A stretch of DNA of 64,000 nt. Source: Candidatus Vogelbacteria bacterium. Lineage in GTDB: Bacteria; Patescibacteriota; Minisyncoccia; Phycocordibacterales; XYD1-FULL-46-19. Below the pieces are notes generated by a model. That model was not told where the DNA came from and did no database searches. It saw nothing but the letters and a program-made list of their open reading frames with translations. The position numbers and the translations under genes are program-made. Each line of letters starts with the position of its first letter. Position 1 is the stretch's first letter. Shown one piece after another: positions 37,088 to 52,622 of the stretch. The stretch lies in the NCBI GenBank assembly GCA_903878275.1, contig CAIRHC010000006.1, positions 15,633-79,632 of the forward strand, given 5' to 3'.

Positions 37088-37191
37088 AACAACCTTTTAT
37101 CGAAGTTCGACTTCGATAGAACTTGAAAAATTGTGGATAAAACAAAAGCCCGCCTCACAGAGACGAGCTCCGTTCGGCGGGCAGAAAAATT

Positions 37192-37452: not shown

Positions 37453-37618
37453 GAGCAATTCTCCTTATCTCAAAAGGTGGTCAACAACATTTGGCACAAT
37501 GCCAGCCGTCAATTTTTCCACTCCTAACTACCTAGCATCAGTGTTGCATATCAATTTTTATTTGTCAATCCCTAATCTTGCCCGAAAAAGCCTTATGTAG
37601 TATAGTTTAATCACTTAT

Positions 37619-38704
37619 ATGGCAAAAGACTATTACAAAACCCTGGGCGTAGATAAGAAAGCTCCAAAAGAGGAGCTGAAGAAGGCTTTTCATAAACTCG
37701 CTCACAAATATCACCCCGACAAACAAGGCGGTGACGAAGCCAAGTTTAAGGAAATCAACGAGGCCTATCAGATTCTCTCCGATGATAACAAGCGCGCGCA
37801 ATACGACCAATTCGGCGAAGCTGGAGCGAATGGTGGCTTTGGTGGGGGTCAAGGCGGACAAGGCTTTGGTGGTTTTGATTTTTCTGGTTTCCAAAATGCC
37901 GGCAATGGTGGCTTTGAATTTGACCTCGGAGACATTTTTGGCGAAATGTTTGGTGGTGGCGGTCGTGGTCGTCGTACTCAAAAAAGCGGTCAGGATATTC
38001 AAGTTGACCTGCAAATAAGTTTCAAAGAATCGATCTTTGGTACCGAGAAAAAAATTAAATTAAATAAGCAAAGTGCGTGCGAAGTCTGTGGAGGTAGTGG
38101 CGCTGAAAAAGGCACGAGCAAAAAGAAATGCACCACTTGCAATGGTCAAGGTTTTACGAATGAAACTCGTCGCTCGATTCTTGGCTCTTTTCAAACCCAA
38201 AAAGAATGTACGGCTTGTTTTGGCACCGGTGAAATTCCCGAAAAAAAATGTGCCAATTGTCGCGGTGATGGCATTGTGAAAAAAGAAGAACAAATCGCAA
38301 TCAATGTACCAGCTGGCATTACCGAAAAAGAAATGTTGCGCATGACCGGCAATGGTGAAGCGATTCCGCACGGTCAAGCTGGCGATTTGTATATTAAATT
38401 TCGCATCGAAAAAGATAAAAATTGGCTTCGCGATGGCGATAATCTGACCACGACCGTCAATATTAAGTTGACTGACGCACTTTTAGGTCTCGATTACAAT
38501 TTAGAAACTTTAGACGGTCCGCTGGTTTTAAAAATTCCCGAGGGAATTAGTTATGGCGAAATTTTACGAATAAAAAACAAAGGTGTGCCGAGCAAATCTG
38601 GTCGCCGAGGTGATGCCTTAATAAAAGTGACATTTGCCACCCCAAACCGTCTTTCCCGAAAAACCAGACAACTTATCGAAGATTTGCGAAACGAGGGAAT
38701 TTAG
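37619..38704 (+). CDS. dnaJ: molecular chaperone DnaJ
   Basis: J-domain with HPD (KYHPDKQ), G/F-rich linker, four CxxCxGxG repeats. Confidence 0.9.
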   Translation: MAKDYYKTLGVDKKAPKEELKKAFHKLAHKYHPDKQGGDEAKFKEINEAYQILSDDNKRAQYDQFGEAGANGGFGGGQGGQGFGGFDFSGFQNAGNGGFEFDLGDIFGEMFGGGGRGRRTQKSGQDIQVDLQISFKESIFGTEKKIKLNKQSACEVCGGSGAEKGTSKKKCTTCNGQGFTNETRRSILGSFQTQKECTACFGTGEIPEKKCANCRGDGIVKKEEQIAINVPAGITEKEMLRMTGNGEAIPHGQAGDLYIKFRIEKDKNWLRDGDNLTTTVNIKLTDALLGLDYNLETLDGPLVLKIPEGISYGEILRIKNKGVPSKSGRRGDALIKVTFATPNRLSRKTRQLIEDLRNEGI

Positions 38705-40318: not shown

Positions 40319-42748
40319 ATGAATATGAACGATAAATATGATTTTAAAAATTCTGAACCAAACTGGCAAAAGTTTTGGGCGGAAAATAATGTCTACGGTT
40401 TCAATCCTGATTCCGACAAACCACTTTATACCATAGATACTCCGCCACCGACCGTTTCCGGCGCGATTCATCTTGGTCATATTTATTCATACACCCAAGC
40501 CGAGGTCATCGCTCGTTATCGTCGATTTCGTGGTTTTAATGTCCGCTATCCGTTTGGAATGGACAACAATGGCTTACCGACCGAACGTCTGGTTGAAAAA
40601 GAATTAAATATTAAAGGTAAAGACTCGAGCTTGAAAGATTTTACCGAAAAATGTTTAGCGACAACCGAAAAATACAAAATTGTTTACGAAGAATTGTGGC
40701 AATCGCTTGGTCTGTCGGTCGATTGGCGTTTGGAATATTCGACAATTTCCGAACCAGTCCAACTGTTAGTGCAGAAAGTTTTTAAAGATTTTTATGATCG
40801 CGGTTTGATTACGAGACAAGAAGCACCCGCCTTGTTTTGTTTTGAATGTGGCACATCAGTCGCCCAAGCCGAAGTGGAAGAAGATGAAAAAGAATCGGTT
40901 TTTTATGATTTAGCTTTTACCGACAAAGATGGGAAAACTTTAACCATCGCCACGACTAGACCAGAATTATTACCGGCCTGCTTAGCAATTTTTGTTCACC
41001 CGAATGATCTACGTTTCCGCGAATTAGTCGGCACAAATGCTACCACACCGATTGGCGATGTTGTACCAATTTTAACCGACGACAAAGTCGATATGGAAAA
41101 AGGTAGTGGGGCAGTGATGTGTTGCTCTTATGGTGACGAGACCGATGTGTATTGGGTTCGCGAGCACAAATTAAAAGAAAAATTGATTGTCGATAGAAAT
41201 GGTAAATTTAAAAAATTAGATAACGCACCAGATTTGCTGGGTTTAAATTTCGTTGATGGTCGCGCCAAGATTATTGAAAAACTAGAAACTGCCGGTAAAA
41301 TTTTAGCTAGTAAAAAAATCTCACACAATCTTGGCGTTCACGAACGCTGTGGCACACCGATTGAATATTTCACGACCGTCCAATGGTTTGTTAAAACTTT
41401 GCCGATTAAAAATGAAATTTTAGAGCAAGGTCAGAAAATAAATTGGTATCCGGCTTTTATGTACAAACGCTTTGAAGATTGGACGCTTGGTCTAAAATGG
41501 GATTGGTGCATTTCGCGCGAAAGGTTTTATGGTATTCCACTTCCAGCTTACACTTGCGACGACTGCGGTAAAATTTTTGTACCGGAAATTAAAGATAAAC
41601 CGATTGATCCACGACTTGAATCAATAGGGGATTTGACCTGCTCTTGTGGTAGCAAAAAACTTTCAGCTGACGGTAATGTGCTCGACACTTGGTTTACCTC
41701 GTCTTTAACCCCCGATATAAATAATGAATCCGATCTCAACGGAGCAATGAAAGGTAAGATGTTCCCATTATCTATGCGCCCACAAGCCCACGACATTATT
41801 CGCACTTGGGCGTTTTATACCATCGTAATGGCGTATTATCGCCACAAGGAGGTGCCTTGGCACGATCTGATGGTCTCCGGGCATATTCTCGCCAAGCAAG
41901 GGGTAAAAATCAGCAAAAAGACTGGTGGGGGCAAATATCAACCTGCCGAGCTTATCGCTGAACATTCCGCTGATGCGGTGCGCTATGTAATGTGTGGCGC
42001 CAAGCTCGGTCAAGATGCTTATTATGATGAAGCCGAAGTCGAAAAAGGTAAGAAATTGATCACCAAAATTTTCAATGCCGGCAAATTTGTTTTCAGCCAT
42101 CTTGAGGAAAATAAATTTAACAAGGAAACAAAACCGGCTGAAATTTACCCAACCGATACTTGGATTTTAGCCAAAGCCGAAAACGCAATGTCCGAAATGA
42201 TGAAGAGTCTTGATCAATATGACTTGATTATCGCTCGCCAAAGATTTGAAGAATTTTTCTGGACTGATTTTTGTGATAATTATTTAGAGCTAGTCAAAGG
42301 ACGACTTTATGGTGACAAAGAAAAGTCTGGTCACTCTTCAGCACTTTATACTTTGTATCACACTTATCTAAAAATTTTGCAAATGTTGGCGCCGTTTATG
42401 CCTCACATTACGGAAGAAATGTATCAAGCTTATTTCGCCAAACAAGAAAAAATAACCAGCCTTCATCAAATGATTTGGCTCGCGGAAAACTCCAAAGAAA
42501 AAAATAAAAATGATTTAGCTTGTTGGGAAACAACTTTGTCGTATATTTACGCGATGCGTCAAGAAAAAAACAAACTAAACTTGAGGCTGGGGGATAGTGT
42601 CGCAAAAATCATCATTTCTGGACTGGAAGAAAATAACAAAAAACTAGCGCTGGCAGCTGAAGATTTAAAAAATATTGCCAAAGCTCAAAACATCGAGTTC
42701 AAAAACCAACCCGAGACAATTTCGGTGATAATTGAGAAACAAGATTAA
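40319..42748 (+). CDS. valS: class Ia aminoacyl-tRNA synthetase, most likely valyl-tRNA synthetase (short form)
   Basis: TPPPTVSGAIHLGH (ValRS-type PPPN-TG/HIGH), CP1 editing TTRPELLPACLAIFVHPND, WCISRERFYGIPLP, KISKKTGG (KMSKS-like), DAVRYVMCG. IleRS is not excluded. Confidence 0.6.
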   Translation: MNMNDKYDFKNSEPNWQKFWAENNVYGFNPDSDKPLYTIDTPPPTVSGAIHLGHIYSYTQAEVIARYRRFRGFNVRYPFGMDNNGLPTERLVEKELNIKGKDSSLKDFTEKCLATTEKYKIVYEELWQSLGLSVDWRLEYSTISEPVQLLVQKVFKDFYDRGLITRQEAPALFCFECGTSVAQAEVEEDEKESVFYDLAFTDKDGKTLTIATTRPELLPACLAIFVHPNDLRFRELVGTNATTPIGDVVPILTDDKVDMEKGSGAVMCCSYGDETDVYWVREHKLKEKLIVDRNGKFKKLDNAPDLLGLNFVDGRAKIIEKLETAGKILASKKISHNLGVHERCGTPIEYFTTVQWFVKTLPIKNEILEQGQKINWYPAFMYKRFEDWTLGLKWDWCISRERFYGIPLPAYTCDDCGKIFVPEIKDKPIDPRLESIGDLTCSCGSKKLSADGNVLDTWFTSSLTPDINNESDLNGAMKGKMFPLSMRPQAHDIIRTWAFYTIVMAYYRHKEVPWHDLMVSGHILAKQGVKISKKTGGGKYQPAELIAEHSADAVRYVMCGAKLGQDAYYDEAEVEKGKKLITKIFNAGKFVFSHLEENKFNKETKPAEIYPTDTWILAKAENAMSEMMKSLDQYDLIIARQRFEEFFWTDFCDNYLELVKGRLYGDKEKSGHSSALYTLYHTYLKILQMLAPFMPHITEEMYQAYFAKQEKITSLHQMIWLAENSKEKNKNDLACWETTLSYIYAMRQEKNKLNLRLGDSVAKIIISGLEENNKKLALAAEDLKNIAKAQNIEFKNQPETISVIIEKQD

Positions 42749-43779
42749 TTTTTTTTAGCGAGATCTAAAACCTCGGTCAGAACCTTAATTAATTGGTTGT
42801 AGTTTTTAGCGCTTGGTACAGTTATTCTGACATATTTTTTAAGCCAAAATGGAGCATCAGGATAACGAGACAGATCTTTTACCCAAACATCTCGACTTTT
42901 TAAGTTTTCGCAAAATTCGCTAGTGTTAAAAAATTTAGCGGTCACGAAGTTGGCGTTACCTGGCAAGACGCTAATATTCCGACTTTTAAAAAACTCTATT
43001 AGTTTTTTTCTGATTTTTGCGACTTCTTCGATATAAGAAATGAGGACCTTCCCGTCTTTGTTTAGTAAATTATCGACTATTGAAATTGAAGCTTTATTTA
43101 TGTTGTAAATATCACCACGCATTTCTATTATTTTTTTTGCTAATTTCTCGTTAGTTATGATTAACCCTAATTTTAAACCACTTAAACCAACCTTGGAGAA
43201 AGAACGTAACACAATGAGATTGTTGTATTTTTTAACCAGGCTAATGACACTATACTTCTCGGAAACATAATCAGCATAAACCTCATCGATAACCACCAAA
43301 ATATTTTTTTGCTTGGCGGCTTTGATAATAATTTCAAGTTCGTTTGTGGTCGCAACAGACCCTAAAGGATTATTAGGATTAGCTAAGTAGACTAACTTTG
43401 TTTTTGACCGAAACACCGTAATAATTTTAGCGACTGGCAAAATACAATTTTCGGCATAACGGATTTTCTTAAACAAAAATTTACGATATTTTTCAAATTT
43501 ACCATAAAAAGCAAAGTTCGGAACTGGTATGACAATTTCTTCGCCGTCGTGAACAAAAAAATTAAAAATAATATCTAAAGCATGATAAGTTCCATTAACT
43601 AATACTAGATTGTTTGGAGATACAGAAAAATTTTGCGCTACCGAATTTATCAGGTTAGTGGTGTCAAAATTTCGAGCATATTGGCAAAAATTATCTGAAT
43701 TTAACCATTTTTTATGGCTAAAAAGGTTTATTTGCCCCTCGTTTAAATCTAATCTTAACTCTTTGGTGTTTTTTTGCAT
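42745..43779 (-). CDS. class I/II PLP-dependent aminotransferase (histidinol-phosphate aminotransferase-like)
   Basis: NPNNPLGS..., VIDEVYADYV, SFSKVGLSGLKLG (PLP-Lys motif). Confidence 0.75.
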   Translation of the reverse strand: MQKNTKELRLDLNEGQINLFSHKKWLNSDNFCQYARNFDTTNLINSVAQNFSVSPNNLVLVNGTYHALDIIFNFFVHDGEEIVIPVPNFAFYGKFEKYRKFLFKKIRYAENCILPVAKIITVFRSKTKLVYLANPNNPLGSVATTNELEIIIKAAKQKNILVVIDEVYADYVSEKYSVISLVKKYNNLIVLRSFSKVGLSGLKLGLIITNEKLAKKIIEMRGDIYNINKASISIVDNLLNKDGKVLISYIEEVAKIRKKLIEFFKSRNISVLPGNANFVTAKFFNTSEFCENLKSRDVWVKDLSRYPDAPFWLKKYVRITVPSAKNYNQLIKVLTEVLDLAKKN

Positions 43780-43815
43780 CGTGTTATTATATCACTAGTA
43801 AAAGGCAACTGTCTA

Positions 43816-43844
43816 TTGCGTTATTCTGTATTATATGGTATAAT
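43816..43844 (+). promoter_or_regulatory. sigma70-like promoter (TTGCGT-17-TATAAT) giving a near-leaderless transcript
   Basis: TATAAT at 43839-43844; the first plausible start codon, GTG 43852, is 7 nt downstream. Confidence 0.4.
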
Positions 43845-43851
43845 CAAAAAC

Positions 43852-45348
43852 GTGAATAATAGTAAGGATTCCGAAGCGATCAAAAAGCAATTGGCTTCGA
43901 AGAATAGCAAATTTTGGGACACCAGGAGAAAAATTGATTCTCTACGTCTTTTTCGTTTGGCTTCCAAAAATGTTTTAGCTTACCAGAAATTTCTTAAACG
44001 ACACAAAATTGATTCGACTCAAATTAAAGATTGTAAAGACTTCGCTAAAATTCCAGCAATTAGTAAAAAAAATTATCTAAGATATTATCCTTACCCAGAA
44101 CTTTTTTGGTCTGGCGAAACCGCAAAAAATGCTACTTATACCTCTACATCTGGTTCGACGGGTGAATCTTTTTATTTCCCAAGAGAATCAACTCTGGATT
44201 GGCAATCTTCGATTATTCACGAAAATTTTATCAATGGCTTCAGCAAAAAAGGAGAATCGGTTCTAGTTGTGGTAACTTTTGGAATGGGCGTCTGGATTGG
44301 GGGATTGATGACTTATCGCGCTTTCGAATATGTCCGAGACCGTAGCAACCGAAAAATCTCAATCATTACACCCGGTATAAATAAAAGTGAAATTTTTACA
44401 ACCTTGCAAAAATTATCGCCGATGTTTGACCACACCATAATTTGTGGTTATCCACCATTCGTTAAAGATGTTATTGACGAAGCGGAAACCTTAAAAATAA
44501 ATACTAAAAAATTAAATTTAAAATTTTCTTTCGCCGCCGAATCTTTTACTGAAAGTTATCGTGATTTTTTGAAAGAAAAAGTTGATCTTAAAAATAAATA
44601 TCTAGAAACAATCAGTATCTATGGTAGCGCCGATATCGGTGCTATGGCGTCGGAAACACCGCTTAGTATTCTAGTTAGAGAATTAGCGATCAAGGATAAA
44701 AAATTCTTTGAAAGTATCTTTGGGCAAATAAATAAAACGCCAACTTTAGCTCAATTTAATCCGTCTTTTATTAATTTCGAAGAAGTTGAAGGAGAGCTCT
44801 TACTCACTGGTAATAGCACGATTCCTTTGATCCGCTATGCACTTGGCGATAACGGCGGAGTTTTTACTTATGATCAGATTGTTGCCAAAGCAAAAAACTT
44901 TAATATAGATTTAGACAATTTAGTAAAAAAACTCGGCCTAAAAGATACGGTTTCCGAGTTACCGTTTGTTTATGTATACGAACGAAAAGATTTATCGACC
45001 ACTCTTTATGGATTAAATGTTTTTCCTGAATTTATAAAAGAAGCTCTCTTGCAACCAGAATTGCACAAATATTGTACTGGCAAGATGGCAATGTGTACCA
45101 AGTTTAACAAAAAACAAGACCAATTTTTAGAGATCAATGTGGAACTTAAAAAAAATGTTACCTCCAACCAAAATCTAGCTAAAAAAATTCAAAAAGTGGT
45201 TCTGTCTCATCTTCTAAAAAGAAGTTCGGAATATCGCGAATTATACAAATTTATTAAAAATCGGGCTTTGCCAAAAATTGTTTTGTGGTCAGCCGAAAAC
45301 CCCAAATATTTTCGTCCGGGTATTAAACAAAAGTGGGTAATAAAATAA
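43852..45348 (+). CDS. adenylate-forming enzyme of the phenylacetate-CoA ligase (PaaK/CapK, F390-synthetase) family
   Basis: YTSTSGSTGESFYFP (AMP-binding TSGTTG motif). Family-typical length. Confidence 0.65.
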   Translation: MNNSKDSEAIKKQLASKNSKFWDTRRKIDSLRLFRLASKNVLAYQKFLKRHKIDSTQIKDCKDFAKIPAISKKNYLRYYPYPELFWSGETAKNATYTSTSGSTGESFYFPRESTLDWQSSIIHENFINGFSKKGESVLVVVTFGMGVWIGGLMTYRAFEYVRDRSNRKISIITPGINKSEIFTTLQKLSPMFDHTIICGYPPFVKDVIDEAETLKINTKKLNLKFSFAAESFTESYRDFLKEKVDLKNKYLETISIYGSADIGAMASETPLSILVRELAIKDKKFFESIFGQINKTPTLAQFNPSFINFEEVEGELLLTGNSTIPLIRYALGDNGGVFTYDQIVAKAKNFNIDLDNLVKKLGLKDTVSELPFVYVYERKDLSTTLYGLNVFPEFIKEALLQPELHKYCTGKMAMCTKFNKKQDQFLEINVELKKNVTSNQNLAKKIQKVVLSHLLKRSSEYRELYKFIKNRALPKIVLWSAENPKYFRPGIKQKWVIK

Positions 45349-45396
45349 ACCTAAACAAATTTCCGCTTTTAGCTTTTTTACGGTAAGATTAAAATT

Positions 45397-46440
45397 ATGA
45401 AAGTAAATCTAGACAAAATGAGGCTAAAATTGGAAACGGAAGCCAACCTGTTTTTTGAGTTAGAAAAAATTGAGGATAAAATAAAATTTCTTTTACGTTT
45501 TGCCATCTTGGCACCATCAACCCACAACACCCAGCCCTGGCTTTTCAAGGTCACAGATAATTCTTGTTTAGTCTTCTTAAATCCTAAATTAAAACTAAAA
45601 TATGCCGATGCTAAAAATCGCGATATTTATATCAGCATTGGCTGTGCCATAGAAAATTTACTAATTGCTGCACAATATTATGGATTAGAGGGTAAAGTTA
45701 CTTACAAAGATTCAGAAGATAATCTCGTGGCAACCATATCGTTTAGTGAAAACATTGAAAAAAGAGAGTTGGAATCTTTAGAGAAAACAATTTTGTATCG
45801 CGTAAATTCTCGTGGTCCTTTTACTGATGAAAAAATTCCGGATATATTTCTAGAGCATCTAAACCAAATATTTTTAGAAAATCATGCTGAAAATGATATT
45901 CAAGTTCATTTTATAAAAGAAAAAAATGACGTTAAAAAAATTGCCGAGTTAACCCAGCTTGGGATGAAAATAGCTCATTCCAATAAAGATTTCCGACAAG
46001 AAATGTCTCGTTGGATAGTAAATAATTACACCAGACGCCGAGACGGTATGATCGGTTATTCGATGAATATGCCTGGACCGATTTCACTACTCGTGTCTAA
46101 AGTTGTCCGTTTTTTTAATATGGGGAAAATAATGGGCAAATTAAATTATATGAGCGTTTCATCGGCTCCCTTGATTTGTGTTTTTACCGCTCCGGACTTA
46201 AAAACTGAAACTTGGTTAAAAATCGGAAGACTCGTTGAGCGTTTAACTCTTGAGCTACAGAAAGAAAATTTCAGCACCTCAATTTATCTAGCTTCAGTAG
46301 AAATGGGAGATTTGTATAAGGAAATTCAAAATATTTTAAAAACTTCGAGTTTACCTCAATTTGTTTTTGCTTCAGGTTTTATGGATAAAACTTTTAAAAC
46401 TACGCCGAGGCACGAACTGGAAGAAAAATTATTAAATTAA
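45397..46440 (+). CDS. two-domain nitroreductase-superfamily (SagB-type dehydrogenase-like) FMN protein
   Basis: AILAPSTHNTQPWLFKV is the nitroreductase signature. 347 aa suggests a tandem nitroreductase fold. Confidence 0.65.
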   Translation: MKVNLDKMRLKLETEANLFFELEKIEDKIKFLLRFAILAPSTHNTQPWLFKVTDNSCLVFLNPKLKLKYADAKNRDIYISIGCAIENLLIAAQYYGLEGKVTYKDSEDNLVATISFSENIEKRELESLEKTILYRVNSRGPFTDEKIPDIFLEHLNQIFLENHAENDIQVHFIKEKNDVKKIAELTQLGMKIAHSNKDFRQEMSRWIVNNYTRRRDGMIGYSMNMPGPISLLVSKVVRFFNMGKIMGKLNYMSVSSAPLICVFTAPDLKTETWLKIGRLVERLTLELQKENFSTSIYLASVEMGDLYKEIQNILKTSSLPQFVFASGFMDKTFKTTPRHELEEKLLN

Positions 46441-46443
46441 ATT

Positions 46444-47550
46444 ATGGATAAAAAATTAGACAACTATTTAAAAAGTGTAACGATTGAATCTGACAGTCAG
46501 CCTGTTTTTTTTGATTTAAAAAACCAAGATGACCAACAAAAATTACTTAGTCTGTTTGAATTAAATAAAATTAAAAAAGTTATCGATAATTACGGTGAAC
46601 AGAATGGGGAACTAGCTTTAGTAAATAATCCGCCACTGATTGCTATTAAAAAAGAAAACTCTACAGTTAGCGAGGGTGTAGAAGATCCAGAAAAAGGTTT
46701 GTGGATTTATTTCCCGTGGAAAGATACTTTAGTCCATTCGCTCGACAAAGAAGATTACGAAAAATTACGTTTGTCTCGAAATAATAACCTTATTAGCCCA
46801 TCGCAACAAGAAAAAATAAAAGCTTTAAGAATCGGTCTGGCGGGATTAAATGTTGGTAATCCCGGCGCTATTTCTTTGATTCAAGAAGGCGTTCAAAAAT
46901 TGAAAATGGCAGATTTAGATATTTTATCTTTATCTAATCTTAATCGCTTCCGAGCTGGATTGCCCGATGTCGAGCTTGATAAAACAATCATTACCGCCAG
47001 GCAAATCTATGAAATAAATCCTTTTGCCGAACTAGAGTTATACAGTAAAGGCATTCAGTCAGATAATATCGACAAATTTCTGCTTGAACCTAAAATCGAT
47101 TTACTCATAGAAGAAATGGATAATTTAAAGCTCAAAATTGCGATTAGAGAAAAAGCTAAGCAATTTAAAATACCGGTGTTAATGGTGACTGGTAATGGAT
47201 CTAATATTATAATTGATATTGAACGTTATGATTTGGATGAAAATATTCCACTTCTTAATGGCTACCTAAAACCTGAAATTATTGAGCAAATAAGTAAAGT
47301 TGTTCCGACCACCGATCTGCGTGAAAAAATGTCTCTCGCTCGAGATTTTATGGGTAAAGAATATTTAGTTAAAGAATTACGCGAATCTTTTGATCGCGTC
47401 GGTATAGATTTGGCGGGTATTCCACAATTAGCTGAAGCAACTTTTTTCCGTGGAGCAACTCTTGCTTATTTTACTCGTCGTATCGCCGTGGATAAAGATA
47501 TTCCTTCCGGACGGTATCTTCTAGAAGTGGATAAACTCAAGTTAGTTTAA
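46444..47550 (+). CDS. E1-like (ThiF/MoeB-family) adenylyltransferase domain protein
   Basis: Rossmann IGLAGLNVGNPGAISLIQEGV; DLDILSLSNLNRF (E1 DxDxVxxSNLNRQ motif). Confidence 0.65.
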   Translation: MDKKLDNYLKSVTIESDSQPVFFDLKNQDDQQKLLSLFELNKIKKVIDNYGEQNGELALVNNPPLIAIKKENSTVSEGVEDPEKGLWIYFPWKDTLVHSLDKEDYEKLRLSRNNNLISPSQQEKIKALRIGLAGLNVGNPGAISLIQEGVQKLKMADLDILSLSNLNRFRAGLPDVELDKTIITARQIYEINPFAELELYSKGIQSDNIDKFLLEPKIDLLIEEMDNLKLKIAIREKAKQFKIPVLMVTGNGSNIIIDIERYDLDENIPLLNGYLKPEIIEQISKVVPTTDLREKMSLARDFMGKEYLVKELRESFDRVGIDLAGIPQLAEATFFRGATLAYFTRRIAVDKDIPSGRYLLEVDKLKLV

Positions 47551-47588
47551 ATTAGCCAAAAATCTCCCAGATCTGCTATAATATTCTT

Positions 47589-49238
47589 ATGGTGATTAGT
47601 AACGTTGATTTATTTTTGACAATTATTCCAAGTTTTTTGATAGCTTATTTAGGTATCATTATTTTATTTCACGGACGAAAAAGCGTTACTAATATTTTTT
47701 TTGCTTTAATTAGTTTTTGTACTGTTTTTTGGTCCATCGCTAATTATCTTTCAATCAGCTCTCCTGATGATCAAACTTTATTTTGGACAAGGCTAGTCCT
47801 TTTTTTCGCTGTTCCTCACGCTCTACTTTTTTTGTTATTTGTCTACAACTTTCCAGCAACTAAAATTACCAATCGAAAATTTTTGACTATTTTATTATCA
47901 ATTATGATAATAACGATGCTCGCAACGGTGTCACCCTTTGTTTTTTCTGGTATAAATTTTGTTGACGGCAAAACTATTCCCCAGACAGGAATCTTGATTC
48001 CAATTTTTGCCTTGGTTGTCCTTGGTTCTTTGTTTTCCGCTCTTTATTTAATTATTAAAAAATATTTAACCGCCAACAAAGACGATAAGGAGCACTGGCG
48101 CGTTATGCTAATCGGCACAGCATTAAGTTATATTTTTATTATCGCGACAAATTTTATTTTAGTTGTTTTTTACCAAGATACTTCTTATCTGAAATTTGGA
48201 CCATTGTTTATGCTACCGACAATTATCGGAATGGGTTATGCTATTCTGCGCTACCAGCTATTAAACGTAAAAGCTATTGCCACAGAAATTTTAACCTTGG
48301 TCATTTTGTCTATTTCTGTTGTTGAAGCTTATTTATCACAGACAAGTTTAGAATTGGCAATGAGATTAATCATTTTTGTTTTTTATGCTATTTTTGGAAT
48401 ATTAATTATTCGTAGTGTTTTAAAAGAAGTTGAACAACGCCAACACATCGAAAAATTAGCGGGTGATTTAGCTTTAACCAACAACCAATTAAAATTTGCA
48501 AACGACAAACTTAAAGAAATTGACCGACAAAAAACTGAATTTGTGTCTATTGCTTCTCACCAGCTTCGCAGCCCACTGACTGCGATTAAGGGCTATTCAT
48601 CAATGCTTCTCGAGGGATCTTTTGGTGATTTTCCCGAAAAAGCACATAATGCGGTTGAGCGAATTTCGGAATCTAGCCAAAAATTGGTTACCGTCATCGA
48701 AGACTTTTTGAATGTCACCCGCATCGAACTTGGCAAAATGAATTACGAGTTAAGCAACTTTGATATTGGTAAGTTAGCCGAACAGGTCATTGGAGAAATC
48801 AAACCAAACATCGAAAAACGTGGTTTGACCATTTCTTACGAAACCGATGGTAACGATCACACCATAAACGCCGATCCTGGTAAAATTAGTCAGGTAATTT
48901 CTAATATTATTGATAATGCTTCCAAATATACCAAAGAAGGCTGGGTAAAAGTCCGCGTTGAAAATTTGAAAAAGACCAACAAAAGCAAGTCTGATACAAT
49001 ACGAATCACCGTAAAAGATAGCGGTATCGGTATTGATAAAAAAAATATCACTCGATTGTTTGAAAAATTCATCCGTGCCGATGACGCCGGCAAAACCAAC
49101 ATCCTCGGCACCGGTCTTGGTCTTTATGTCGCCAAACAGATGGTCGAAGGACTGGGCGGTAAAATCTGGGCAGAGTCAGAAGGTCTCGACAAAGGCTCAA
49201 CTTTCATTGTCGAATTTAAACAAGCCAAAACCAAATAA
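47589..49238 (+). CDS. membrane-integral sensor histidine kinase
   Basis: About 7 N-terminal TM helices. H-box FVSIASHQLRSPLTAI, N/G boxes, GTGLGLYVAKQMVEGLGG. Confidence 0.85.
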   Translation: MVISNVDLFLTIIPSFLIAYLGIIILFHGRKSVTNIFFALISFCTVFWSIANYLSISSPDDQTLFWTRLVLFFAVPHALLFLLFVYNFPATKITNRKFLTILLSIMIITMLATVSPFVFSGINFVDGKTIPQTGILIPIFALVVLGSLFSALYLIIKKYLTANKDDKEHWRVMLIGTALSYIFIIATNFILVVFYQDTSYLKFGPLFMLPTIIGMGYAILRYQLLNVKAIATEILTLVILSISVVEAYLSQTSLELAMRLIIFVFYAIFGILIIRSVLKEVEQRQHIEKLAGDLALTNNQLKFANDKLKEIDRQKTEFVSIASHQLRSPLTAIKGYSSMLLEGSFGDFPEKAHNAVERISESSQKLVTVIEDFLNVTRIELGKMNYELSNFDIGKLAEQVIGEIKPNIEKRGLTISYETDGNDHTINADPGKISQVISNIIDNASKYTKEGWVKVRVENLKKTNKSKSDTIRITVKDSGIGIDKKNITRLFEKFIRADDAGKTNILGTGLGLYVAKQMVEGLGGKIWAESEGLDKGSTFIVEFKQAKTK

Positions 49239-49274: not shown

Positions 49275-50258
49275 ATGGAAGAAAATAACAAAAAAATATT
49301 ATTATCGGGTGTCAAACCGACCGGGCGACCACATATCGGTAATTATTTTGGGGCGATGAAACAATTTGTCGATTTGCAAGATAAATATCAGGCTTACGTT
49401 TTTATTGCTGACCTACACGCCCTCACGACATCTCGCGACCCCAAGCAACTTCGACAAGATACTCTTGATCTAGTTTTTGATTACCTCGCCATCGGACTTG
49501 ATCCAGAAAAAGTCATTTTCTTTAAGCAATCTGACATCCTAGAACACACCAACCTTGGTTGGATTTTTAACTGTCTCACGACAATGCCATATCTTGCACG
49601 TGCTCACGCCTTCAAAGATGCCGAGGTCAAAAACAAAGAGGTCAATGTCGGTCTGTTTGATTACCCGTTATTAATGGCGGCGGATATTTTGCTGTACGAT
49701 ACCGATGTCGTGCCCGTCGGGCAGGATCAAAAACAGCACGTGGAAATCGCGCGCGACACTGCCGAAAAATTTAATTTCAGTTATGGAGAGACTTTTAAAT
49801 TGCCAGTGCCTTTGATTTTGGACGATGTCAAAACCGTCATTGGTCTTGATGGTCAAAAAATGAGCAAAAGTTATGGCAACACCATTCCACTTTTTGCCGA
49901 TGAAGCCGAGATTAAAAAATTAGTTGCCACTATAAAAACCGATTCCAAAGGAGTAGAGGAGTCGAAAAATCCGGAAGAATGCAATGTTTTTGCTTTACAT
50001 AAATTGTTCACCCCAACCGAGCAACTCACTGAAATTAAAAAAAGATATATTGACGGAGGAATTGGCTACAAAGAATCGAAAGATATTTTGGCTGATAATA
50101 TGAATAAATATCTAACTCCACTCCGAGAGAAGAGAGCCGAAATCGCCAAAGACCCCGCCAAAGTAATCGAGATTCTAAAAAAAGGCGCCGAGATCGGCCG
50201 TAAAAAAGCGGAAGCCAAAATGACTGATGTCCGAGCTAAAGTGGGAATTGATTTATAA
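49275..50258 (+). CDS. trpS: tryptophanyl-tRNA synthetase
   Basis: SGVKPTGRPHIGNYFG (HIGH-like), GQDQKQH, KMSKSYGN. Confidence 0.9.
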   Translation: MEENNKKILLSGVKPTGRPHIGNYFGAMKQFVDLQDKYQAYVFIADLHALTTSRDPKQLRQDTLDLVFDYLAIGLDPEKVIFFKQSDILEHTNLGWIFNCLTTMPYLARAHAFKDAEVKNKEVNVGLFDYPLLMAADILLYDTDVVPVGQDQKQHVEIARDTAEKFNFSYGETFKLPVPLILDDVKTVIGLDGQKMSKSYGNTIPLFADEAEIKKLVATIKTDSKGVEESKNPEECNVFALHKLFTPTEQLTEIKKRYIDGGIGYKESKDILADNMNKYLTPLREKRAEIAKDPAKVIEILKKGAEIGRKKAEAKMTDVRAKVGIDL

Positions 50259-50259
50259 A

Positions 50260-50760
50260 ATGGAACAAATAGAAAAACAGGGGTTGAAGTACGCTTTAAT
50301 TTCCGGCCAACTTAATGCCAATGATTTTTTAGTAAAAATTTTTGAGATCGACCAGGCGAGCGATGAACACACGGAAGCAGTAAATAATTTGGCAACCCTT
50401 AAAGATGAAGAGGTTAGACAAAGACTCCAAGAGCCCGAAGAAATTTTTCTAAAATACTGCAAAATCTTATCTCTTACTAATTTTCATATTGGACAAATTG
50501 AGGCAATGGATCACGCAAATCCAGAAAAAGCCTTGAACTATTTCGAGGAAGCCTTGGCGCCTACCAAAAATGTCAAAGATTCAAGCTACCAAGATTGGGT
50601 TTATTATGTTTCTGGCACAATCGCTTACTTTAAAAATAATCTGGATTCTTTAAGTGATTTTATCGCAAAAATATCAGACGAGAAAAACAAAAAAGTATTA
50701 GAAAGGCTTCTGATCGGACTAACAGAAAGAGGAGAGCCTGATTACATAAAAGATTATTAA
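50260..50760 (+). CDS. hypothetical protein
   Basis: Internal ATG (MEQIEKQG) of ORF 50227, which otherwise overlaps trpS. No motif recognised. Confidence 0.4.
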   Translation: MEQIEKQGLKYALISGQLNANDFLVKIFEIDQASDEHTEAVNNLATLKDEEVRQRLQEPEEIFLKYCKILSLTNFHIGQIEAMDHANPEKALNYFEEALAPTKNVKDSSYQDWVYYVSGTIAYFKNNLDSLSDFIAKISDEKNKKVLERLLIGLTERGEPDYIKDY

Positions 50761-50768
50761 GAAACAAA

Positions 50769-51089
50769 ATGCCTTGGATTTTACCTCTCTCATTTTTAAT
50801 TCTGTTTGAAATAATTGCGGATATTTTTGCGAAAGAATGGTCTTTAAAGACCCATCTTTGGTATTTGGCTTTCGGGGCTTTAGCTTCTTATGTGATCGCC
50901 AATAGTTTTTGGCTTTTTGCCTTAAAAAACGGCTCGGGCTTAGCTCGTGGAGCAATAATTTTCTCGGTCGCCACCGCCATTATCGCCACACTTTTAGGTC
51001 TTTTTTGGTATCAAGAAAAAGTTTCAAATGTTCAAATCGCAGGCATCATCGCTGGTATCATTTCTATTATTTTGATTTTTTGGGAATAA
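50769..51089 (+). CDS. small 4-TM transporter of the DMT/SMR (EmrE/SugE-like) type
   Basis: 106 aa with four hydrophobic helices; Glu in TM1 (LFEIIADIFAKE). Confidence 0.5.
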   Translation: MPWILPLSFLILFEIIADIFAKEWSLKTHLWYLAFGALASYVIANSFWLFALKNGSGLARGAIIFSVATAIIATLLGLFWYQEKVSNVQIAGIIAGIISIILIFWE

Positions 51090-51203
51090 AATGGTATTAT
51101 TTAAACAAGCTTTTGGGCCGATTAACAACCGGATTCAAACTCAAGGCATAAGTAATAAATCAGGGTGGCACCGCGGTGAATCTTAAATATTTAGATCCAA
51201 AAA

Positions 51204-51252
51204 CCGCCCCTGCAAGTTTTTTCATTTTGAAGAACTTGCAGGGGCGGTTTTT
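51204..51252 (+). terminator. strong bidirectional intrinsic terminator
   Basis: Perfect 15-bp stem CCGCCCCTGCAAGTT/AACTTGCAGGGGCGG with A-run upstream and T-run downstream. Confidence 0.75.
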
Positions 51253-51290
51253 ATTAAAAATATTATTAGAAGAAATTAACAAACAAATTT

Positions 51291-52622
51291 ATGATAAACA
51301 GAATTAAAATAAGTGACCTAAAAGAACATACAGGTAAAGAAGTTTCAATCGCAGGCTGGGTGGATGTCCGCCGAGACCACGGCAAATTGATCTTTATTGA
51401 TTTGCGTGACGCTTCGGGCAAGGTCCAGATGGTTATCTTACCAAATCACGCCGAAGCCGGCGCCGTAGCCACCAAATTGCGCCCAGAGTGGGTGATTAAG
51501 GTGACAGGCCTGGTTAACAAGCGCCCAGACAAAATGATCAGCCCAGAGCAAGAAAATGGTGATATCGAGATTGAAGTCACAGGTATAGAAATTTTGAGCG
51601 AAGCCAAAGAATTGCCATTTGATACTGGCGCAGAACTTAATTTTGATACCTATCTTGATCACTTACCTTTGACTTTGCGAGGTGACAAGCCGAGAGCGAT
51701 TTTCCGCGTTCAAGCGCAAATAATAAAATCTTTCCGCGATTTCCTAACCGCCGAAGGTTTCACTGAAATTCAAGCACCAAAACTAATTGGCGATGACGCC
51801 GAAGGTGGTGCCAACTCTTTTAATGTTGAATACTTTGGTCACACCGCCCATCTCGCACAAAGCCCACAGCTTTACAAACAAATTATGGTCGGCATTTTTG
51901 AAAAAGTTTTTGCCGCCGGGAATGTTTATCGTGCCGAAAAACACAGCACCACACGACACTTAAACGAATACACAAGTCTAGACCTCGAAATGGGTTTTAT
52001 CACGGACCATACCGATGTGATGAATATGGAGAACAAGCTTTTGGCAAAAATTATGGCAGATTTAAAAATAAACTGCGCCAAAGAATTTGCACTACTCAAA
52101 GCTGAAATTCCTGATGTGCCCGAAAAAATTCCAGTAATGAAATTGCGAGAAGCTCAAGAAATTATGAAAAAAGAAACCGGCGAAGACAGTACTAGCGAAC
52201 CAGATCTCGAACCTCAACACGAACGCTGGCTCTGCGAATATGCCAAGAAAAAATTTAATTCTGATTTTATTTTCATTTCACATTTTCCTATTTCCAAGCG
52301 TCCATTTTACACTTACGAAGACGAAAATGATCTAGGTTACGCCAAGGGTTTCGACTTATTGTTCCGGGGTGTGGAAATTACCACCGGCGCCCAACGCATC
52401 CACAGTTATGATTCTCTCGTCGCTTCGATGGAGAAGAAAAGTCTCAAGCCGGAAAGTTTTAGTTACTATCTTCAAGCCTTCAAATATGGCATTCCTCCGC
52501 ATGGTGGTCTAGGACTTGGCTTAGAGCGCCTGACCGCCAAACTCCTCGGCATTGAAAATGTTAAAGAAGCGACTCTTTTCCCACGCGACTTAAACCGCAT
52601 TGACGTTTTGTTGTCAAAATAA
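51291..52622 (+). CDS. aspS: aspartyl-tRNA synthetase, archaeal/eukaryal type (class IIb, 443 aa; probably non-discriminating)
   Basis: N-terminal OB fold, FRVQAQIIKSFRDFL, HLAQSPQLYKQ, AEKHSTTRHLNEYTSLDLEMGF, GGLGLGLERL. Confidence 0.85.
   Translation: MINRIKISDLKEHTGKEVSIAGWVDVRRDHGKLIFIDLRDASGKVQMVILPNHAEAGAVATKLRPEWVIKVTGLVNKRPDKMISPEQENGDIEIEVTGIEILSEAKELPFDTGAELNFDTYLDHLPLTLRGDKPRAIFRVQAQIIKSFRDFLTAEGFTEIQAPKLIGDDAEGGANSFNVEYFGHTAHLAQSPQLYKQIMVGIFEKVFAAGNVYRAEKHSTTRHLNEYTSLDLEMGFITDHTDVMNMENKLLAKIMADLKINCAKEFALLKAEIPDVPEKIPVMKLREAQEIMKKETGEDSTSEPDLEPQHERWLCEYAKKKFNSDFIFISHFPISKRPFYTYEDENDLGYAKGFDLLFRGVEITTGAQRIHSYDSLVASMEKKSLKPESFSYYLQAFKYGIPPHGGLGLGLERLTAKLLGIENVKEATLFPRDLNRIDVLLSK

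What the first reader, a model, noticed from the sequence alone, without database searches (positions are those of the whole stretch)
43816..47550. Three-gene cluster: PaaK/CapK-type adenylating ligase, two-domain SagB-like nitroreductase and E1/ThiF-like enzyme (TOMM/RiPP-like machinery without YcaO)
Nitroreductase-fold dehydrogenase plus E1-like partner is the B/C pair of thiazole/oxazole peptide clusters. Here they are tightly linked (4-bp gap) and preceded by an acyl-adenylate-forming ligase under its own near-leaderless promoter. No YcaO or obvious precursor peptide is seen. This may be a novel small-molecule, peptide or cofactor tailoring pathway in a reduced genome.
Basis: partly seen in the sequence, partly recalled or inferred. 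Interest (0 to 1): 0.55.

Follow-up and report, generated by a model that had tools for sequence, protein, structure and literature searches.

The report
Oxazolone-type biosynthesis operon with sensor kinase
The three genes are real and belong to a five-gene operon, conserved across candidate-phyla-radiation bacteria, that most likely makes a small acyl-amino-acid-derived oxazolone ring compound and sits next to a membrane sensor kinase, which suggests these minimal bacteria produce and perhaps sense a small signalling molecule.

Summary
The three genes exist as described: a PaaK-fold adenylating ligase (43852-45348), a tandem nitroreductase-fold flavoprotein (45397-46440) and a ThiF/E1-like enzyme (46444-47550). 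The TOMM/RiPP reading is the wrong family. ThiF plus flavoprotein is the split form of the ThiF-FDO "oxazolone synthase" (OxzB; TyzB/TyzC; TrzS = Rv1355c), shown in 2021-2025 to cyclise (ATP) and desaturate (FMN/O2) N-acyl amino acids, not peptides. No YcaO, SagB-type match, precursor or carrier ORF was found.

The unit is larger than reported. In 79 Patescibacteria species loci the ligase is followed by ThiF (46/46 loci with enough flank), the flavoprotein (40/46, counting fusions) and a 7TM histidine kinase (39/46), with median gaps of 0-8 nt. An amino-acid dehydrogenase or one of two aminotransferase types usually lies upstream, and a receiver-only response regulator is often nearby. Ligase-ThiF and ThiF-flavoprotein fusions link all three enzymes.

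The N-acyltransferase of known oxazolone clusters is absent, and the uncharacterised ligase takes its place. Best reading (inferred, about 0.55): the ligase makes an N-acyl amino acid, ThiF cyclises it, the flavoprotein desaturates it, and the kinase may sense it. This is a new variant of a known kind, and I found no description of it in CPR.

The parts
42745..43779 (-). Class I/II PLP aminotransferase (HisC-like), transcribed divergently from the ligase. It is the amino acid / 2-oxo acid interconversion step of the module.
   Evidence: Pfam Aminotran_1_2, E 2.5e-39. Best NCBIfam match is hisC, 201 bits, below the cut-off of 276. The same position next to the ligase holds a homologous aminotransferase in 7 loci, a Leu/Phe/Trp-type ELFV dehydrogenase in 35 loci and a class IV branched-chain aminotransferase in 2 loci (four loci carry one near the cluster).
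43786..43815 (-). Promoter-like site for the aminotransferase (TAGACA-18-TATAAT with TG). The -10 element ends 6 nt before the ATG, so the transcript is probably leaderless.
   Evidence: This is a consensus match only; its function is inferred.
43836..43844 (+). Extended -10 element TGgTATAAT, ending 7 nt upstream of the ligase GTG start. The transcript is probably leaderless.
   Evidence: Sequence read; distance computed. Function is inferred.
43852..45348 (+). PaaK-fold (ANL superfamily) adenylate-forming ligase of an uncharacterised Patescibacteria-wide family. Proposed to make the N-acyl amino acid substrate.
   Evidence: 498 aa, identical to P0001. No Pfam match. PaaK NCBIfam 48 bits against a cut-off of 646. 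AF2 model pLDDT 84.9. Best folds are PaaK 2y4o, BT_0428 and HCL, then ClxA; the amide bond synthetase McbA also matches. Invariant ANL motifs. Fused to ThiF in P0255 and P0257.
45397..46440 (+). [quoted passage not shown] Proposed desaturase.
   Evidence: NF047509 Acg family, 191 bits over residues 32-344 (cut-off 199). It also matches the FDO half of the PRK07877 and PRK14851 models. 24% identity, E 2e-17, to the FDO half of a Jiangella Rv1355c-family protein. Closest PDB sequence is Acg 2ymv. The motif APS.HN.QPW and R135/R139 are invariant across both CPR subtypes.
46444..47550 (+). ThiF-like ATP-dependent cyclase, equivalent to the ThiF half of TrzS/Rv1355c.
   Evidence: PRK07877 (Rv1355c family), 277 bits, residues 15-364 against model positions 8-337 of 722; the next best model (ThiF) scores 69.5 bits. 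30% identity, E 1e-47, over residues 30-365 to Jiangella P0323. Invariant G134, V137, G138, D157, D159, N165, N167, R168, K180 and D226, with no invariant Cys. AF2 model pLDDT 89.7; best folds are AclA 9egb, ThiF and MoeB.
47553..47582 (+). Promoter-like site (TAGCCA-18-TATAAT with TG) ending 6 nt before the kinase ATG.
   Evidence: Consensus match only.
47589..49238 (+). Sensor histidine kinase with an N-terminal 7TM sensor region. It is the conserved last gene of the module.
   Evidence: Pfam HisKA_7TM (residues 12-227), HisKA and HATPase_c. A homologous 7TM kinase lies within 8 kb of the ligase in 39 of 46 loci with enough flank. The flavoprotein-to-kinase gap has a median of 8 nt, and 32 of 35 gaps are <= 50 nt.

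Best explanation
The locus is the Patescibacteria (CPR) version of an N-acyl-oxazolone (azlactone) biosynthetic operon, coupled to a two-component sensor.

Proposed steps:
1. The upstream aminotransferase interconverts a hydrophobic or aromatic amino acid and its 2-oxo acid, supplying one of the building blocks. In most relatives a Leu/Phe/Trp-type dehydrogenase or a branched-chain aminotransferase does this job. (Inferred.)
2. The PaaK-fold ligase adenylates a carboxylic acid and joins it to the amino group of an amino acid, giving an N-acyl amino acid. It replaces the acyl-CoA-dependent GNAT-like acyltransferase (OxzA/TyzA/TrzA) of the known clusters. (Inferred. A CoA thioester intermediate cannot be excluded.)
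3. The ThiF-like enzyme adenylates the amino-acid carboxylate. The amide oxygen attacks it, closing the 5(4H)-oxazolone ring. (By homology to TrzS, TyzB and OxzB, where this was shown biochemically.)
4. The nitroreductase-fold flavoprotein desaturates the C-alpha/C-beta bond. (By homology to TyzC and the FDO domain of TrzS.)
5. The co-operonic 7TM histidine kinase, with a receiver-only response regulator in many relatives, senses the product or controls the operon. (Inferred from conserved linkage only.)

Shown here: the homology, the conserved catalytic residues, the conservation of the operon, and the gene fusions linking ligase, ThiF and flavoprotein.
Not shown: any substrate, any product, or the role of the kinase.
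For: Family assignment:
- ThiF scores 277 bits on the Rv1355c-family model against <= 70 bits on the ThiF, MoeB and TcdA models.
- A CPR ThiF-flavoprotein fusion (L059, 733 aa) scores 450.5 bits over positions 25-712 of 722 of the same model; the cut-off is 476.
- Pairwise against a named Rv1355c-family protein, the window ThiF gives E 1e-47 and the flavoprotein E 2e-17.
- Adenylation residues are invariant, including D226, in the position that corresponds (by motif, from my knowledge of ThiF/MoeB) to the conserved adenylation-motif Asp mutated in TrzS (D217A abolishes cyclisation) (PMC12856293).
- FMN-site motifs are invariant.

Biochemistry of the family: OxzB, TyzB/TyzC and TrzS cyclise and desaturate N-acyl amino acids (10.1101/2020.06.11.147165; PMC10404671; PMC12856293).

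Co-conservation in 79 species loci:
- ThiF is adjacent in 46/46 loci with enough flank, the flavoprotein in 38/46 plus 2 fusions, and the 7TM kinase in 39/46.
- Median gaps are 0-8 nt.

Rosetta-stone fusions: ligase-ThiF (P0255 and P0257) and ThiF-flavoprotein (L059, L064, P0247).

Three non-homologous enzymes of the same reaction class occupy the slot upstream of the ligase: ELFV dehydrogenase, class I/II aminotransferase and class IV aminotransferase.

Precedent for ANL/PaaK-fold enzymes making amides or esters directly: ClxA and McbA appear among the fold hits, and the TamA ANL domain makes N-acyl amides (PMC6677021, title and abstract as listed).

Non-CPR TrzS-like genes also sit next to signalling genes (GAF-GGDEF-EAL), as the authors noted for Mtb (PMC12856293).
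Against: - There is no biochemical or metabolite evidence for any CPR member.
- The ligase family is uncharacterised, and its acceptor (amine or CoA) and its acid substrate are unknown.
- The defining acyltransferase of known oxazolone clusters is absent.
- All curated NCBIfam cut-offs are missed: 277 and 81 bits for the split proteins, and 450.5 for the fusion, against 476.
- The window's flavoprotein scores higher on the Acg/Rv3131 model (191 bits) than on the FDO half of the Rv1355c model (81 bits). Grigg et al. suggested that Acg-type FDO-B enzymes are not oxazolone enzymes.
- Six of 46 loci lack a flavoprotein gene near ligase-ThiF.
- Known FDOs use O2, while many CPR organisms live in anoxic water.
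- The window has no response regulator within 64 kb. The kinase here has its own promoter-like site.
Confidence: 0.55

Rival explanations
1. TOMM/RiPP-like peptide maturation. The E1-like protein docks a ribosomal precursor peptide, and the nitroreductase-fold protein oxidises azolines. A missing or unrecognised cyclodehydratase does the ring closure.
For: Both protein superfamilies occur in TOMM clusters. The structural neighbours of the ThiF model include the peptide-modifying enzymes PaaA and MccB.
Against: - No YcaO was found in the 20 largest window ORFs or as a conserved neighbour in 79 loci.
- No SagB or TOMM docking-protein NCBIfam match.
- No conserved small ORF sits near the cluster, and the intergenic gaps are only 3-48 nt.
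- The ThiF retains a complete adenylation site.
- The closest characterised relatives act on small molecules (PMC12856293).
Confidence: 0.04
2. Housekeeping sulfur-carrier or cofactor enzymes. The ThiF would be a MoeB/ThiF/TcdA-type adenylyltransferase for Moco, thiamin or tRNA ct6A, next to an unrelated NAD(P)H nitroreductase and an acyl-CoA ligase.
For: JGI automatic names for homologues include 'tRNA A37 threonylcarbamoyladenosine dehydratase' and 'molybdopterin/thiamine biosynthesis adenylyltransferase'. TcdA, ThiF and MoeB structures are fold neighbours.
Against: - Scores on the MoeB, ThiF and TcdA models are 31-70 bits against cut-offs of 152-376, and far below the Rv1355c-family score.
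- There is no invariant Cys or CxxC motif.
- No ThiS/MoaD-like ORF ending in GG is conserved nearby.
- The three enzymes are tied together by strict operonic linkage and by fusions.
Confidence: 0.03
3. An amino-acid fermentation or salvage module. The dehydrogenase or aminotransferase and a genuine arylacetate or branched-chain acyl-CoA ligase handle 2-oxo acid-derived acids, as PaaK-like ligases do next to indolepyruvate oxidoreductases in anaerobes. ThiF and the flavoprotein then make a different, non-oxazolone product from the activated acid.
For: The ligase is closest in fold to the CoA ligases PaaK, BT_0428 and HCL. An amino-acid dehydrogenase or aminotransferase is the commonest upstream gene. 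Six loci have ligase and ThiF without a nearby flavoprotein.
Against: - No 2-oxoacid:ferredoxin oxidoreductase or other CoA-dependent enzyme is conserved in the neighbourhood.
- The ligase is translationally coupled to ThiF (median gap 0 nt) and is fused to it in two lineages. This argues that the ligase product is handed directly to the cyclase.
Confidence: 0.15
4. The same enzymology as the best explanation, but the product is not a signal. It would be a membrane lipid, an antimicrobial or a stress metabolite, and the kinase merely regulates the operon or is linked by synteny.
For: The physiological role of oxazolones is unresolved even in Mycobacterium, where stress links have been proposed (PMC12856293). 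The window's kinase has its own promoter-like site. The neighbourhood is also syntenic for housekeeping genes (dnaK, dnaJ, trpS, aspS).
Against: The kinase keeps its position immediately after the last biosynthetic gene even when the ThiF/flavoprotein order changes or the ligase moves. Its gaps are a few nt or overlaps. Unrelated signalling proteins flank TrzS-like genes in other phyla.
Confidence: 0.2

Closest known systems
TrzA/TrzS (Rv1356c/Rv1355c) N-acyl-tryptazolone pathway of Mycobacterium and Rhodococcus
   Same: Both have a ThiF-like cyclase with the same N-terminal extension and adenylation residues, and an FDO flavoprotein. In some CPR lineages the two are fused in the same order as in TrzS, scoring 450.5 bits on the family model. 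Both sit next to signal-transduction genes.
   Different: - In the window the two halves are separate genes, in the order FDO then ThiF.
- Identity to a named Rv1355c-family homologue (Jiangella P0323; TrzS itself was not aligned) is only 24-30%.
- No TrzA-type acyltransferase is present. A PaaK-fold ligase and an amino-acid dehydrogenase or aminotransferase are present instead.
- The signalling partner is a 7TM histidine kinase rather than GGDEF/EAL proteins.
TyzA/TyzB/TyzC (Rv2336/Rv2338c/Rv2337c) N-acyl-tyrazolone pathway
   Same: ThiF and FDO are separate adjacent genes, as here. There is a three-enzyme logic of acylation, cyclisation and desaturation.
   Different: TyzA is an acyl-CoA-dependent acyltransferase related by fold to AHL synthases and FeeM. 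It is not an adenylating ligase. The Tyz cluster has no linked kinase.
OxzAB oxazolone synthetase of Pseudoalteromonas rubra
   Same: It is the founding ThiF-nitroreductase pair acting on N-acyl Tyr/Phe, so the predicted chemistry is the same.
   Different: It is a two-gene operon in Proteobacteria with the GNAT-type OxzA. It belongs to a different ThiF subcluster from TrzS.
PaaK phenylacetate-CoA ligase, and PaaK-fold ligases that couple without CoA (ClxA; the amide bond synthetase McbA is a more distant ANL relative)
   Same: The two-domain ANL fold is shared, along with the P-loop-like TSGSTG motif and a C-terminal catalytic Lys motif.
   Different: Identity in the structural alignments is only about 15%. 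The PaaK model scores 48 bits against a cut-off of 646. There is an extra N-terminal helical segment of about 60 residues. The substrates are unknown.
TOMM B (SagB/McbC) and C (E1-like) proteins
   Same: The superfamilies are the same, and so is the overall logic of ATP-dependent heterocyclisation followed by FMN-dependent dehydrogenation.
   Different: There is no YcaO and no precursor peptide. There are no SagB or TOMM docking-protein model matches. The ThiF is itself the catalytically competent ATP-using enzyme.
CqsA/CqsS-type autoinducer synthase plus multi-TM sensor kinase pairs (recalled from my own knowledge, not tested)
   Same: A small-molecule biosynthetic enzyme is encoded next to a polytopic membrane histidine kinase that could bind a hydrophobic product.
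   Different: There is no homology. The resemblance is in gene organisation only.

Membership tests
N-acyl-oxazolone biosynthetic cluster (OxzAB / TyzABC / TrzAS) | ThiF-like cyclase of the TrzS/TyzB/OxzB clade with an intact adenylation site | tested here: met
   PRK07877 scores 277 bits over the whole ThiF half; the next model scores 69.5 bits. 30% identity, E 1e-47, to a named Rv1355c-family protein, including the N-terminal extension. D157, D159, N165, N167, R168, K180 and D226 are invariant.
N-acyl-oxazolone biosynthetic cluster (OxzAB / TyzABC / TrzAS) | FDO-type nitroreductase-superfamily flavoprotein adjacent to or fused with the ThiF | tested here: met
   The gap in the window is 3 nt. 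The flavoprotein is adjacent in 38/46 loci and fused in L059, L064 and P0247. Acg-family model 191 bits. E 2e-17 to the FDO half of P0323.
N-acyl-oxazolone biosynthetic cluster (OxzAB / TyzABC / TrzAS) | Adjacent GNAT/AHL-synthase-like N-acyltransferase (OxzA/TyzA/TrzA) | tested here: not met
   Two candidate acyltransferases were used as queries. One is the gene upstream of the Jiangella TrzS-like gene, taken as TrzA-like from its position only, since it has no Pfam or NCBIfam match. The other is the L087 GNAT. Neither has a homologue at phmmer E <= 10 among 4026 ORFs of 85 CPR loci plus the window. No conserved neighbour other than the ligase could supply the acylation step.
N-acyl-oxazolone biosynthetic cluster (OxzAB / TyzABC / TrzAS) | Curated equivalog score for the Rv1355c family (NCBIfam PRK07877, 476 bits) | tested here: not met
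   Window ThiF 277 bits and flavoprotein 81 bits. The CPR fusion L059 scores 450.5 bits. These are close relatives, not equivalogs.
N-acyl-oxazolone biosynthetic cluster (OxzAB / TyzABC / TrzAS) | ATP-dependent cyclisation and O2/FMN-dependent desaturation of an N-acyl amino acid to an oxazolone | not testable with these tools
   This needs enzyme assays or LC-MS of a heterologous host.
TOMM (thiazole/oxazole-modified microcin) B/C/D machinery | YcaO cyclodehydratase in the cluster | tested here: not met
   No YcaO Pfam match in the cluster genes or the 20 largest window ORFs. No extra conserved gene in 79 loci. The rest of the genome was not searched.
TOMM (thiazole/oxazole-modified microcin) B/C/D machinery | SagB-type dehydrogenase (TIGR03605) and TOMM docking/E1-like protein (TIGR03603) | tested here: not met
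   Neither model appears among the NCBIfam matches at E <= 0.01.
TOMM (thiazole/oxazole-modified microcin) B/C/D machinery | Cys/Ser/Thr-rich precursor peptide gene nearby | tested here: not met
   Gaps inside the cluster are 3-48 nt. No conserved small ORF lies within 3 kb of the cluster in the related loci; the only conserved 'small ORFs' turned out to be 16S rRNA.
MoeB/ThiF sulfur-carrier adenylyltransferases | Equivalog-level similarity, a catalytic or Zn-binding Cys, and a partner ThiS/MoaD | tested here: not met
   31-70 bits against cut-offs of 152-376. No invariant Cys. No conserved GG-ending small ORF.
PaaK phenylacetate-CoA ligase | Equivalog score (TIGR02155, 646 bits) and a paa catabolic context | tested here: not met
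   48 bits. The fold is shared. The context is never a paa operon.

The most novel reading that the evidence does not exclude
The operon is a self-contained chemical signalling circuit of CPR bacteria. A CoA-independent, PaaK-fold N-acyl-amino-acid synthetase feeds an oxazolone synthase. The hydrophobic oxazolone, or its acyl-amino-acid precursor, is the ligand of the co-encoded 7TM histidine kinase, which signals through a CheY-like receiver. This would be the first autoinducer- or host-sensing-type system defined in Patescibacteria. It would also point to a signalling role for oxazolones in general, matching the GGDEF/EAL neighbours in Actinobacteria.
Probability: 0.2. Interest if true: 0.8.

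Novelty: new variant of a known kind. Interest (0 to 1): 0.6.

Why it matters
CPR/Patescibacteria have tiny genomes with almost no recognised secondary metabolism or chemical signalling. Here a five- to six-gene module is retained in hundreds of species across several CPR classes.

If the module makes an oxazolone or N-acyl amino acid, four things follow:
1. A very recently discovered metabolite class extends from Proteobacteria and Actinobacteria into the CPR.
2. A new, possibly CoA-independent route to N-acyl amino acids is defined, using an uncharacterised ligase family that has no Pfam model.
3. Oxazolone synthesis becomes linked to a dedicated sensor kinase. This makes the open question of what oxazolones are for directly testable.
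4. A conserved and tractable handle becomes available for studying how episymbiotic CPR cells sense each other or their hosts.

Tried and rejected
- TOMM/RiPP reading: rejected. There is no YcaO, no SagB or docking-protein model match and no precursor.
- MoeB/ThiF/TcdA housekeeping reading: rejected on scores, the lack of conserved Cys and the lack of a carrier ORF.
- Search for an OxzA/TrzA-type acyltransferase in CPR loci: nothing found.
- Search for a response regulator in the window, using an HMM built from the regulators of related loci: none found.
- Conserved small ORFs downstream of the kinase in six loci looked like a candidate peptide or RNA, but they are the 16S rRNA gene.
- Rfam scan of the window: only tRNAs, and no riboswitch near the cluster.
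- Promoter scan: the number of sites does not exceed that in shuffles. The leaderless promoters therefore rest on position and perfect -10 boxes only.
- Organism identification: failed.
- Literature on AclA (9egb), the closest solved ThiF-like structure: not found in the library. Its function could not be used.
- Low GC of the five-gene block (0.32-0.36): considered as a sign of horizontal transfer, but other genes in the window are equally AT-rich, so this is inconclusive.
- Whether the window's flavoprotein is FDO-A or FDO-B: unresolved. The HMM score favours the Acg model, while pairwise BLAST favours the TrzS-like FDO half over Acg 2ymv.

Full report
WHAT IS IN THE SEQUENCE

The three ORFs named in the finding are present on the + strand.
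- The ligase ORF opens mechanically at TTG 43774. The start supported by homologues is GTG 43852, giving a 498-aa product identical over its full length to database protein P0001.
- The nitroreductase-fold gene is 45397-46440 (347 aa).
- The ThiF-like gene is 46444-47550 (368 aa). It follows the nitroreductase-fold gene after 3 nt.

Two flanking genes turn out to belong to the same unit:
- A divergently transcribed class I/II aminotransferase, 42745-43779 on the - strand.
- A histidine kinase, 47589-49238, with an N-terminal HisKA_7TM sensor region.

The aminotransferase, the ligase and the kinase each have a perfect TATAAT ending 6-7 nt before the start codon, and each -10 box is preceded by TG at the extended -10 position. 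Shine-Dalgarno-like motifs precede only 3 of 50 genes in the window. However, promoter-like sites in the region as a whole are not enriched over shuffled sequence.

WHAT THE PROTEINS ARE

Ligase:
- It has no Pfam match and only a weak PaaK match: 48 bits against a cut-off of 646.
- An AlphaFold model built on 24 homologues (pLDDT 84.9) has PaaK, BT_0428 and 2-hydroxyisobutyryl-CoA ligase as its best solved folds (E about 1e-19 to 1e-15). The next hits are the PaaK-fold coupling enzyme ClxA and, more distantly, acetyl-CoA synthetases and the amide bond synthetase McbA.
- Its family keeps ANL-type motifs invariant: TSGSTG, YG.AD.G, RY..GD.GG and a C-terminal GIKQKW.

Flavoprotein:
- It matches the Acg/Rv3131 FMN-oxidoreductase model over nearly its whole length: 191 bits against a cut-off of 199.
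- It also matches the C-terminal half of the 'Rv1355c family' model.

ThiF-like protein:
- It matches the N-terminal half of that same Rv1355c model: 277 bits, residues 15-364 against model positions 8-337 of 722.
- ThiF, MoeB, TcdA and other E1-like models reach only 23-70 bits.
- No SagB or TOMM docking-protein model appears.

THE KEY TO THE PAIR

Rv1355c is TrzS, a ThiF-FDO fusion. In 2025 it was shown to carry out ATP-dependent cyclisation and O2-dependent desaturation of N-acyl-tryptophan, giving an N-acyl tryptazolone (PMC12856293). The separate enzymes TyzB (ThiF) and TyzC (FDO), and the fused OxzB of Pseudoalteromonas rubra, do the same with N-acyl Tyr/Phe (PMC10404671; 10.1101/2020.06.11.147165). 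[quoted passage not shown]

Evidence that the window pair is related to these enzymes:
- The window ThiF aligns with a named Rv1355c-family protein from Jiangella at 30% identity over residues 30-365 (E 1e-47). The alignment includes the N-terminal extension (W..YPW..TLV), which lies outside the core that aligns with solved ThiF and MoeB structures.
- The flavoprotein aligns with the FDO half of the same protein (24% identity, E 2e-17).
- In the CPR ThiF family the adenylation residues are invariant: G134, V137, G138, D157, D159, N165, N167, R168, K180 and D226. There is no invariant Cys. D226 lies in the EEMDN motif. From my knowledge of ThiF and MoeB, and from the alignment, it corresponds to the conserved adenylation-motif Asp that was mutated in TrzS, where D217A abolishes cyclisation.
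- The flavoprotein family has two subtypes that are only about 20% identical. Both share the motif APS..N.QPW, E86, N87, R135 and R139.

CONSERVATION AND TRUE EXTENT

The ligase family is large and highly conserved in Patescibacteria. The protein search returned 1995 hits, and the top 120 are all >= 49% identical. A pattern scan of one genome per GTDB species confirmed 270 loci, and I fetched 80 of them. By record title nearly all are Patescibacteria MAGs; two carry a 'Gammaproteobacteria' label.

I called ORFs and searched them with profiles built from the window proteins. Among the 46 loci with enough flanking sequence:
- A ThiF homologue lies near the ligase in 46.
- The flavoprotein lies nearby in 38, and two further loci carry ThiF-flavoprotein fusions.
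- A 7TM kinase homologue lies nearby in 39.

Junction gaps are operon-like:
- ligase to ThiF: median 0 nt, with 57 of 58 gaps <= 50 nt
- ThiF to flavoprotein: median 6 nt
- flavoprotein to kinase: median 8 nt
- dehydrogenase to ligase: median 5 nt

The gene immediately upstream of the ligase belongs to one of three unrelated families that catalyse the same class of reaction:
- An ELFV-family dehydrogenase in 35 loci. Its best NCBIfam match is the tryptophan dehydrogenase ScyB, 312-328 bits, so it belongs to the Leu/Phe/Trp branch rather than the glutamate dehydrogenases.
- A HisC-like aminotransferase in 7 loci, as in the window.
- A class IV branched-chain aminotransferase in 2 loci (four loci carry one near the cluster).

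A receiver-only response regulator is present in 20 of 79 loci, often directly flanking the operon. An MsbA-like ABC exporter is present in 12.

Gene fusions tie the enzymes together:
- ThiF-flavoprotein fusions occur in Magasanikbacteria and Doudnabacteria. L059 scores 450.5 bits on the Rv1355c model over positions 25-712.
- Ligase-ThiF fusions occur in one Liptonbacteria genome and one unnamed metagenomic contig (P0255 and P0257: 43% and 40% identity to the window ligase, E 2e-133 and 8e-128). Both sit in the canonical context of regulator, dehydrogenase, ligase-ThiF, flavoprotein (and, where the contig reaches that far, the 7TM kinase).

WHAT IS ABSENT

- No YcaO appears in the cluster or in the 20 largest ORFs of the window. 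None appears as a conserved neighbour either.
- No conserved small ORF, Cys/Ser/Thr-rich peptide or GG-ending carrier lies near the cluster. The only conserved 'small ORFs' were the 16S rRNA gene.
- The GNAT/AHL-synthase-like acyltransferase that defines all characterised oxazolone clusters is also absent. Two candidate acyltransferases were used as queries: the gene upstream of the Jiangella TrzS-like gene (TrzA-like by position only) and a GNAT next to another fusion. Neither has a detectable homologue among 4026 ORFs of the CPR loci and the window.

MOST LIKELY MECHANISM

The ligase occupies the slot of the missing acyltransferase and is physically fused to the cyclase in some lineages. The simplest reading is therefore that the ligase produces the cyclase's substrate, an N-acyl amino acid, by adenylating an acid and coupling it to an amino acid. 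ANL enzymes that make amides or esters directly are well precedented (ClxA and McbA; the TamA ANL domain, PMC6677021, title and abstract only).

The remaining steps would be:
- The dehydrogenase or aminotransferase supplies either the amino acid or an amino-acid-derived (2-oxo) acid. Which one is not resolved.
- ThiF then closes the oxazolone ring.
- The flavoprotein introduces the C-alpha/C-beta double bond.

The last two steps rest on homology to enzymes whose activity was shown biochemically. The ligase step and the substrate identities are inference.

The kinase is the most intriguing part. It keeps its position after the last biosynthetic gene whatever the internal order. Unrelated signalling proteins (GAF-GGDEF-EAL) flank TrzS-like genes in Jiangella and in a metagenomic relative, as the authors noted for Mtb (PMC12856293). 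They also pointed out the resemblance of acyl-oxazolones to acyl-homoserine lactones. A synthase-plus-receptor circuit is therefore a reasonable hypothesis, but it is untested.

CAVEATS

- All curated family cut-offs are missed.
- The window's flavoprotein scores better on the Acg model than on the TrzS FDO half. Pairwise, however, it is closer to a TrzS-like FDO (70.9 bits) than to Acg 2ymv (32 bits).
- Six loci have ligase and ThiF without a nearby flavoprotein.
- Known FDOs use O2.
- The window has no response regulator within 64 kb.
- The organism could not be named. The closest relatives are Paceibacteria- and Vogelbacteria-type MAGs.

NOVELTY

The library holds no paper that connects oxazolones, ThiF-FDO pairs or this ligase family with Patescibacteria. 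The oxazolone papers describe only acyltransferase-containing clusters in Proteobacteria and Actinomycetota. I therefore rate this a new variant of a known kind. The cyclase/oxidase core is known. What is new is its combination with an uncharacterised PaaK-fold ligase, an amino-acid dehydrogenase or aminotransferase and a 7TM sensor kinase, conserved across the CPR.

Noticed in passing
window 15018-18305 (+): The leucyl-tRNA synthetase is unusually long (1095 aa). It carries an alpha/beta-hydrolase / Ser_hydrolase-like segment at residues about 247-402, between the catalytic core and the editing domain (PF00561 and PF06821, 34.8 bits each).
   Followed up: no
window 3285-7372: A Prim-Pol/PriCT_1 protein (3285-5573) and a large serine recombinase (5801-7360) lie next to tRNA-Ala(TGC) at 7296-7372 (-). 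The GC content is higher here (about 0.46 against about 0.39). This looks like an integrated mobile element at a tRNA gene.
   Followed up: no
window 43786-43791 (-), 43839-43844 (+), 47577-47582 (+), and genome-wide: Perfect TATAAT boxes end 6-7 nt before the start codons of three adjacent genes. Shine-Dalgarno-like motifs precede only 3 of 50 genes. The genome appears to rely largely on leaderless or SD-independent initiation.
   Followed up: partly
window 42745-49238: All five genes of the module have a GC content of 0.32-0.36, against 0.40-0.41 for the flanking synthetase genes. Other genes in the window are equally AT-rich, so horizontal acquisition is not established.
   Followed up: partly
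window 11957-12130 (+): There are two tandem tRNA-Ala(GGC) genes. Only the first reaches the Rfam gathering score.
   Followed up: no
L001 8608-10419 (= L029): A GmrSD-type (DUF262/DUF1524) nuclease gene is inserted between the ThiF and flavoprotein genes of the operon in one genome.
   Followed up: no
L049 2682-10229; L071: L049 carries two ligase-ThiF pairs, one of them divergent (243 bits), with a radical SAM gene between them. L071 is an inverted duplication (DnaJ, ligase, ThiF, then ligase and DnaJ reversed), probably an assembly artefact.
   Followed up: no
L086 7130-9364; L088 8074-11270: TrzS-like ThiF-FDO fusions outside the CPR are immediately followed by GAF-GGDEF-EAL proteins (Jiangella and a metagenomic relative with a 980-aa fusion). 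This link between oxazolone synthases and signal transduction recurs in more than one lineage.
   Followed up: partly
window 19512-20774, 27148-28398, 28425-29723 (+): Three ORFs of 416-432 aa have no Pfam family at E <= 1e-5.
   Followed up: no
related loci (13 loci for trpS, 10 for aspS; e.g. L056, L083); window 35177-38704, 49275-52622: The oxazolone-type module sits in a syntenic housekeeping neighbourhood shared by many CPR genomes: grpE, dnaK, dnaJ and pyrD upstream, trpS and aspS downstream.
   Followed up: partly
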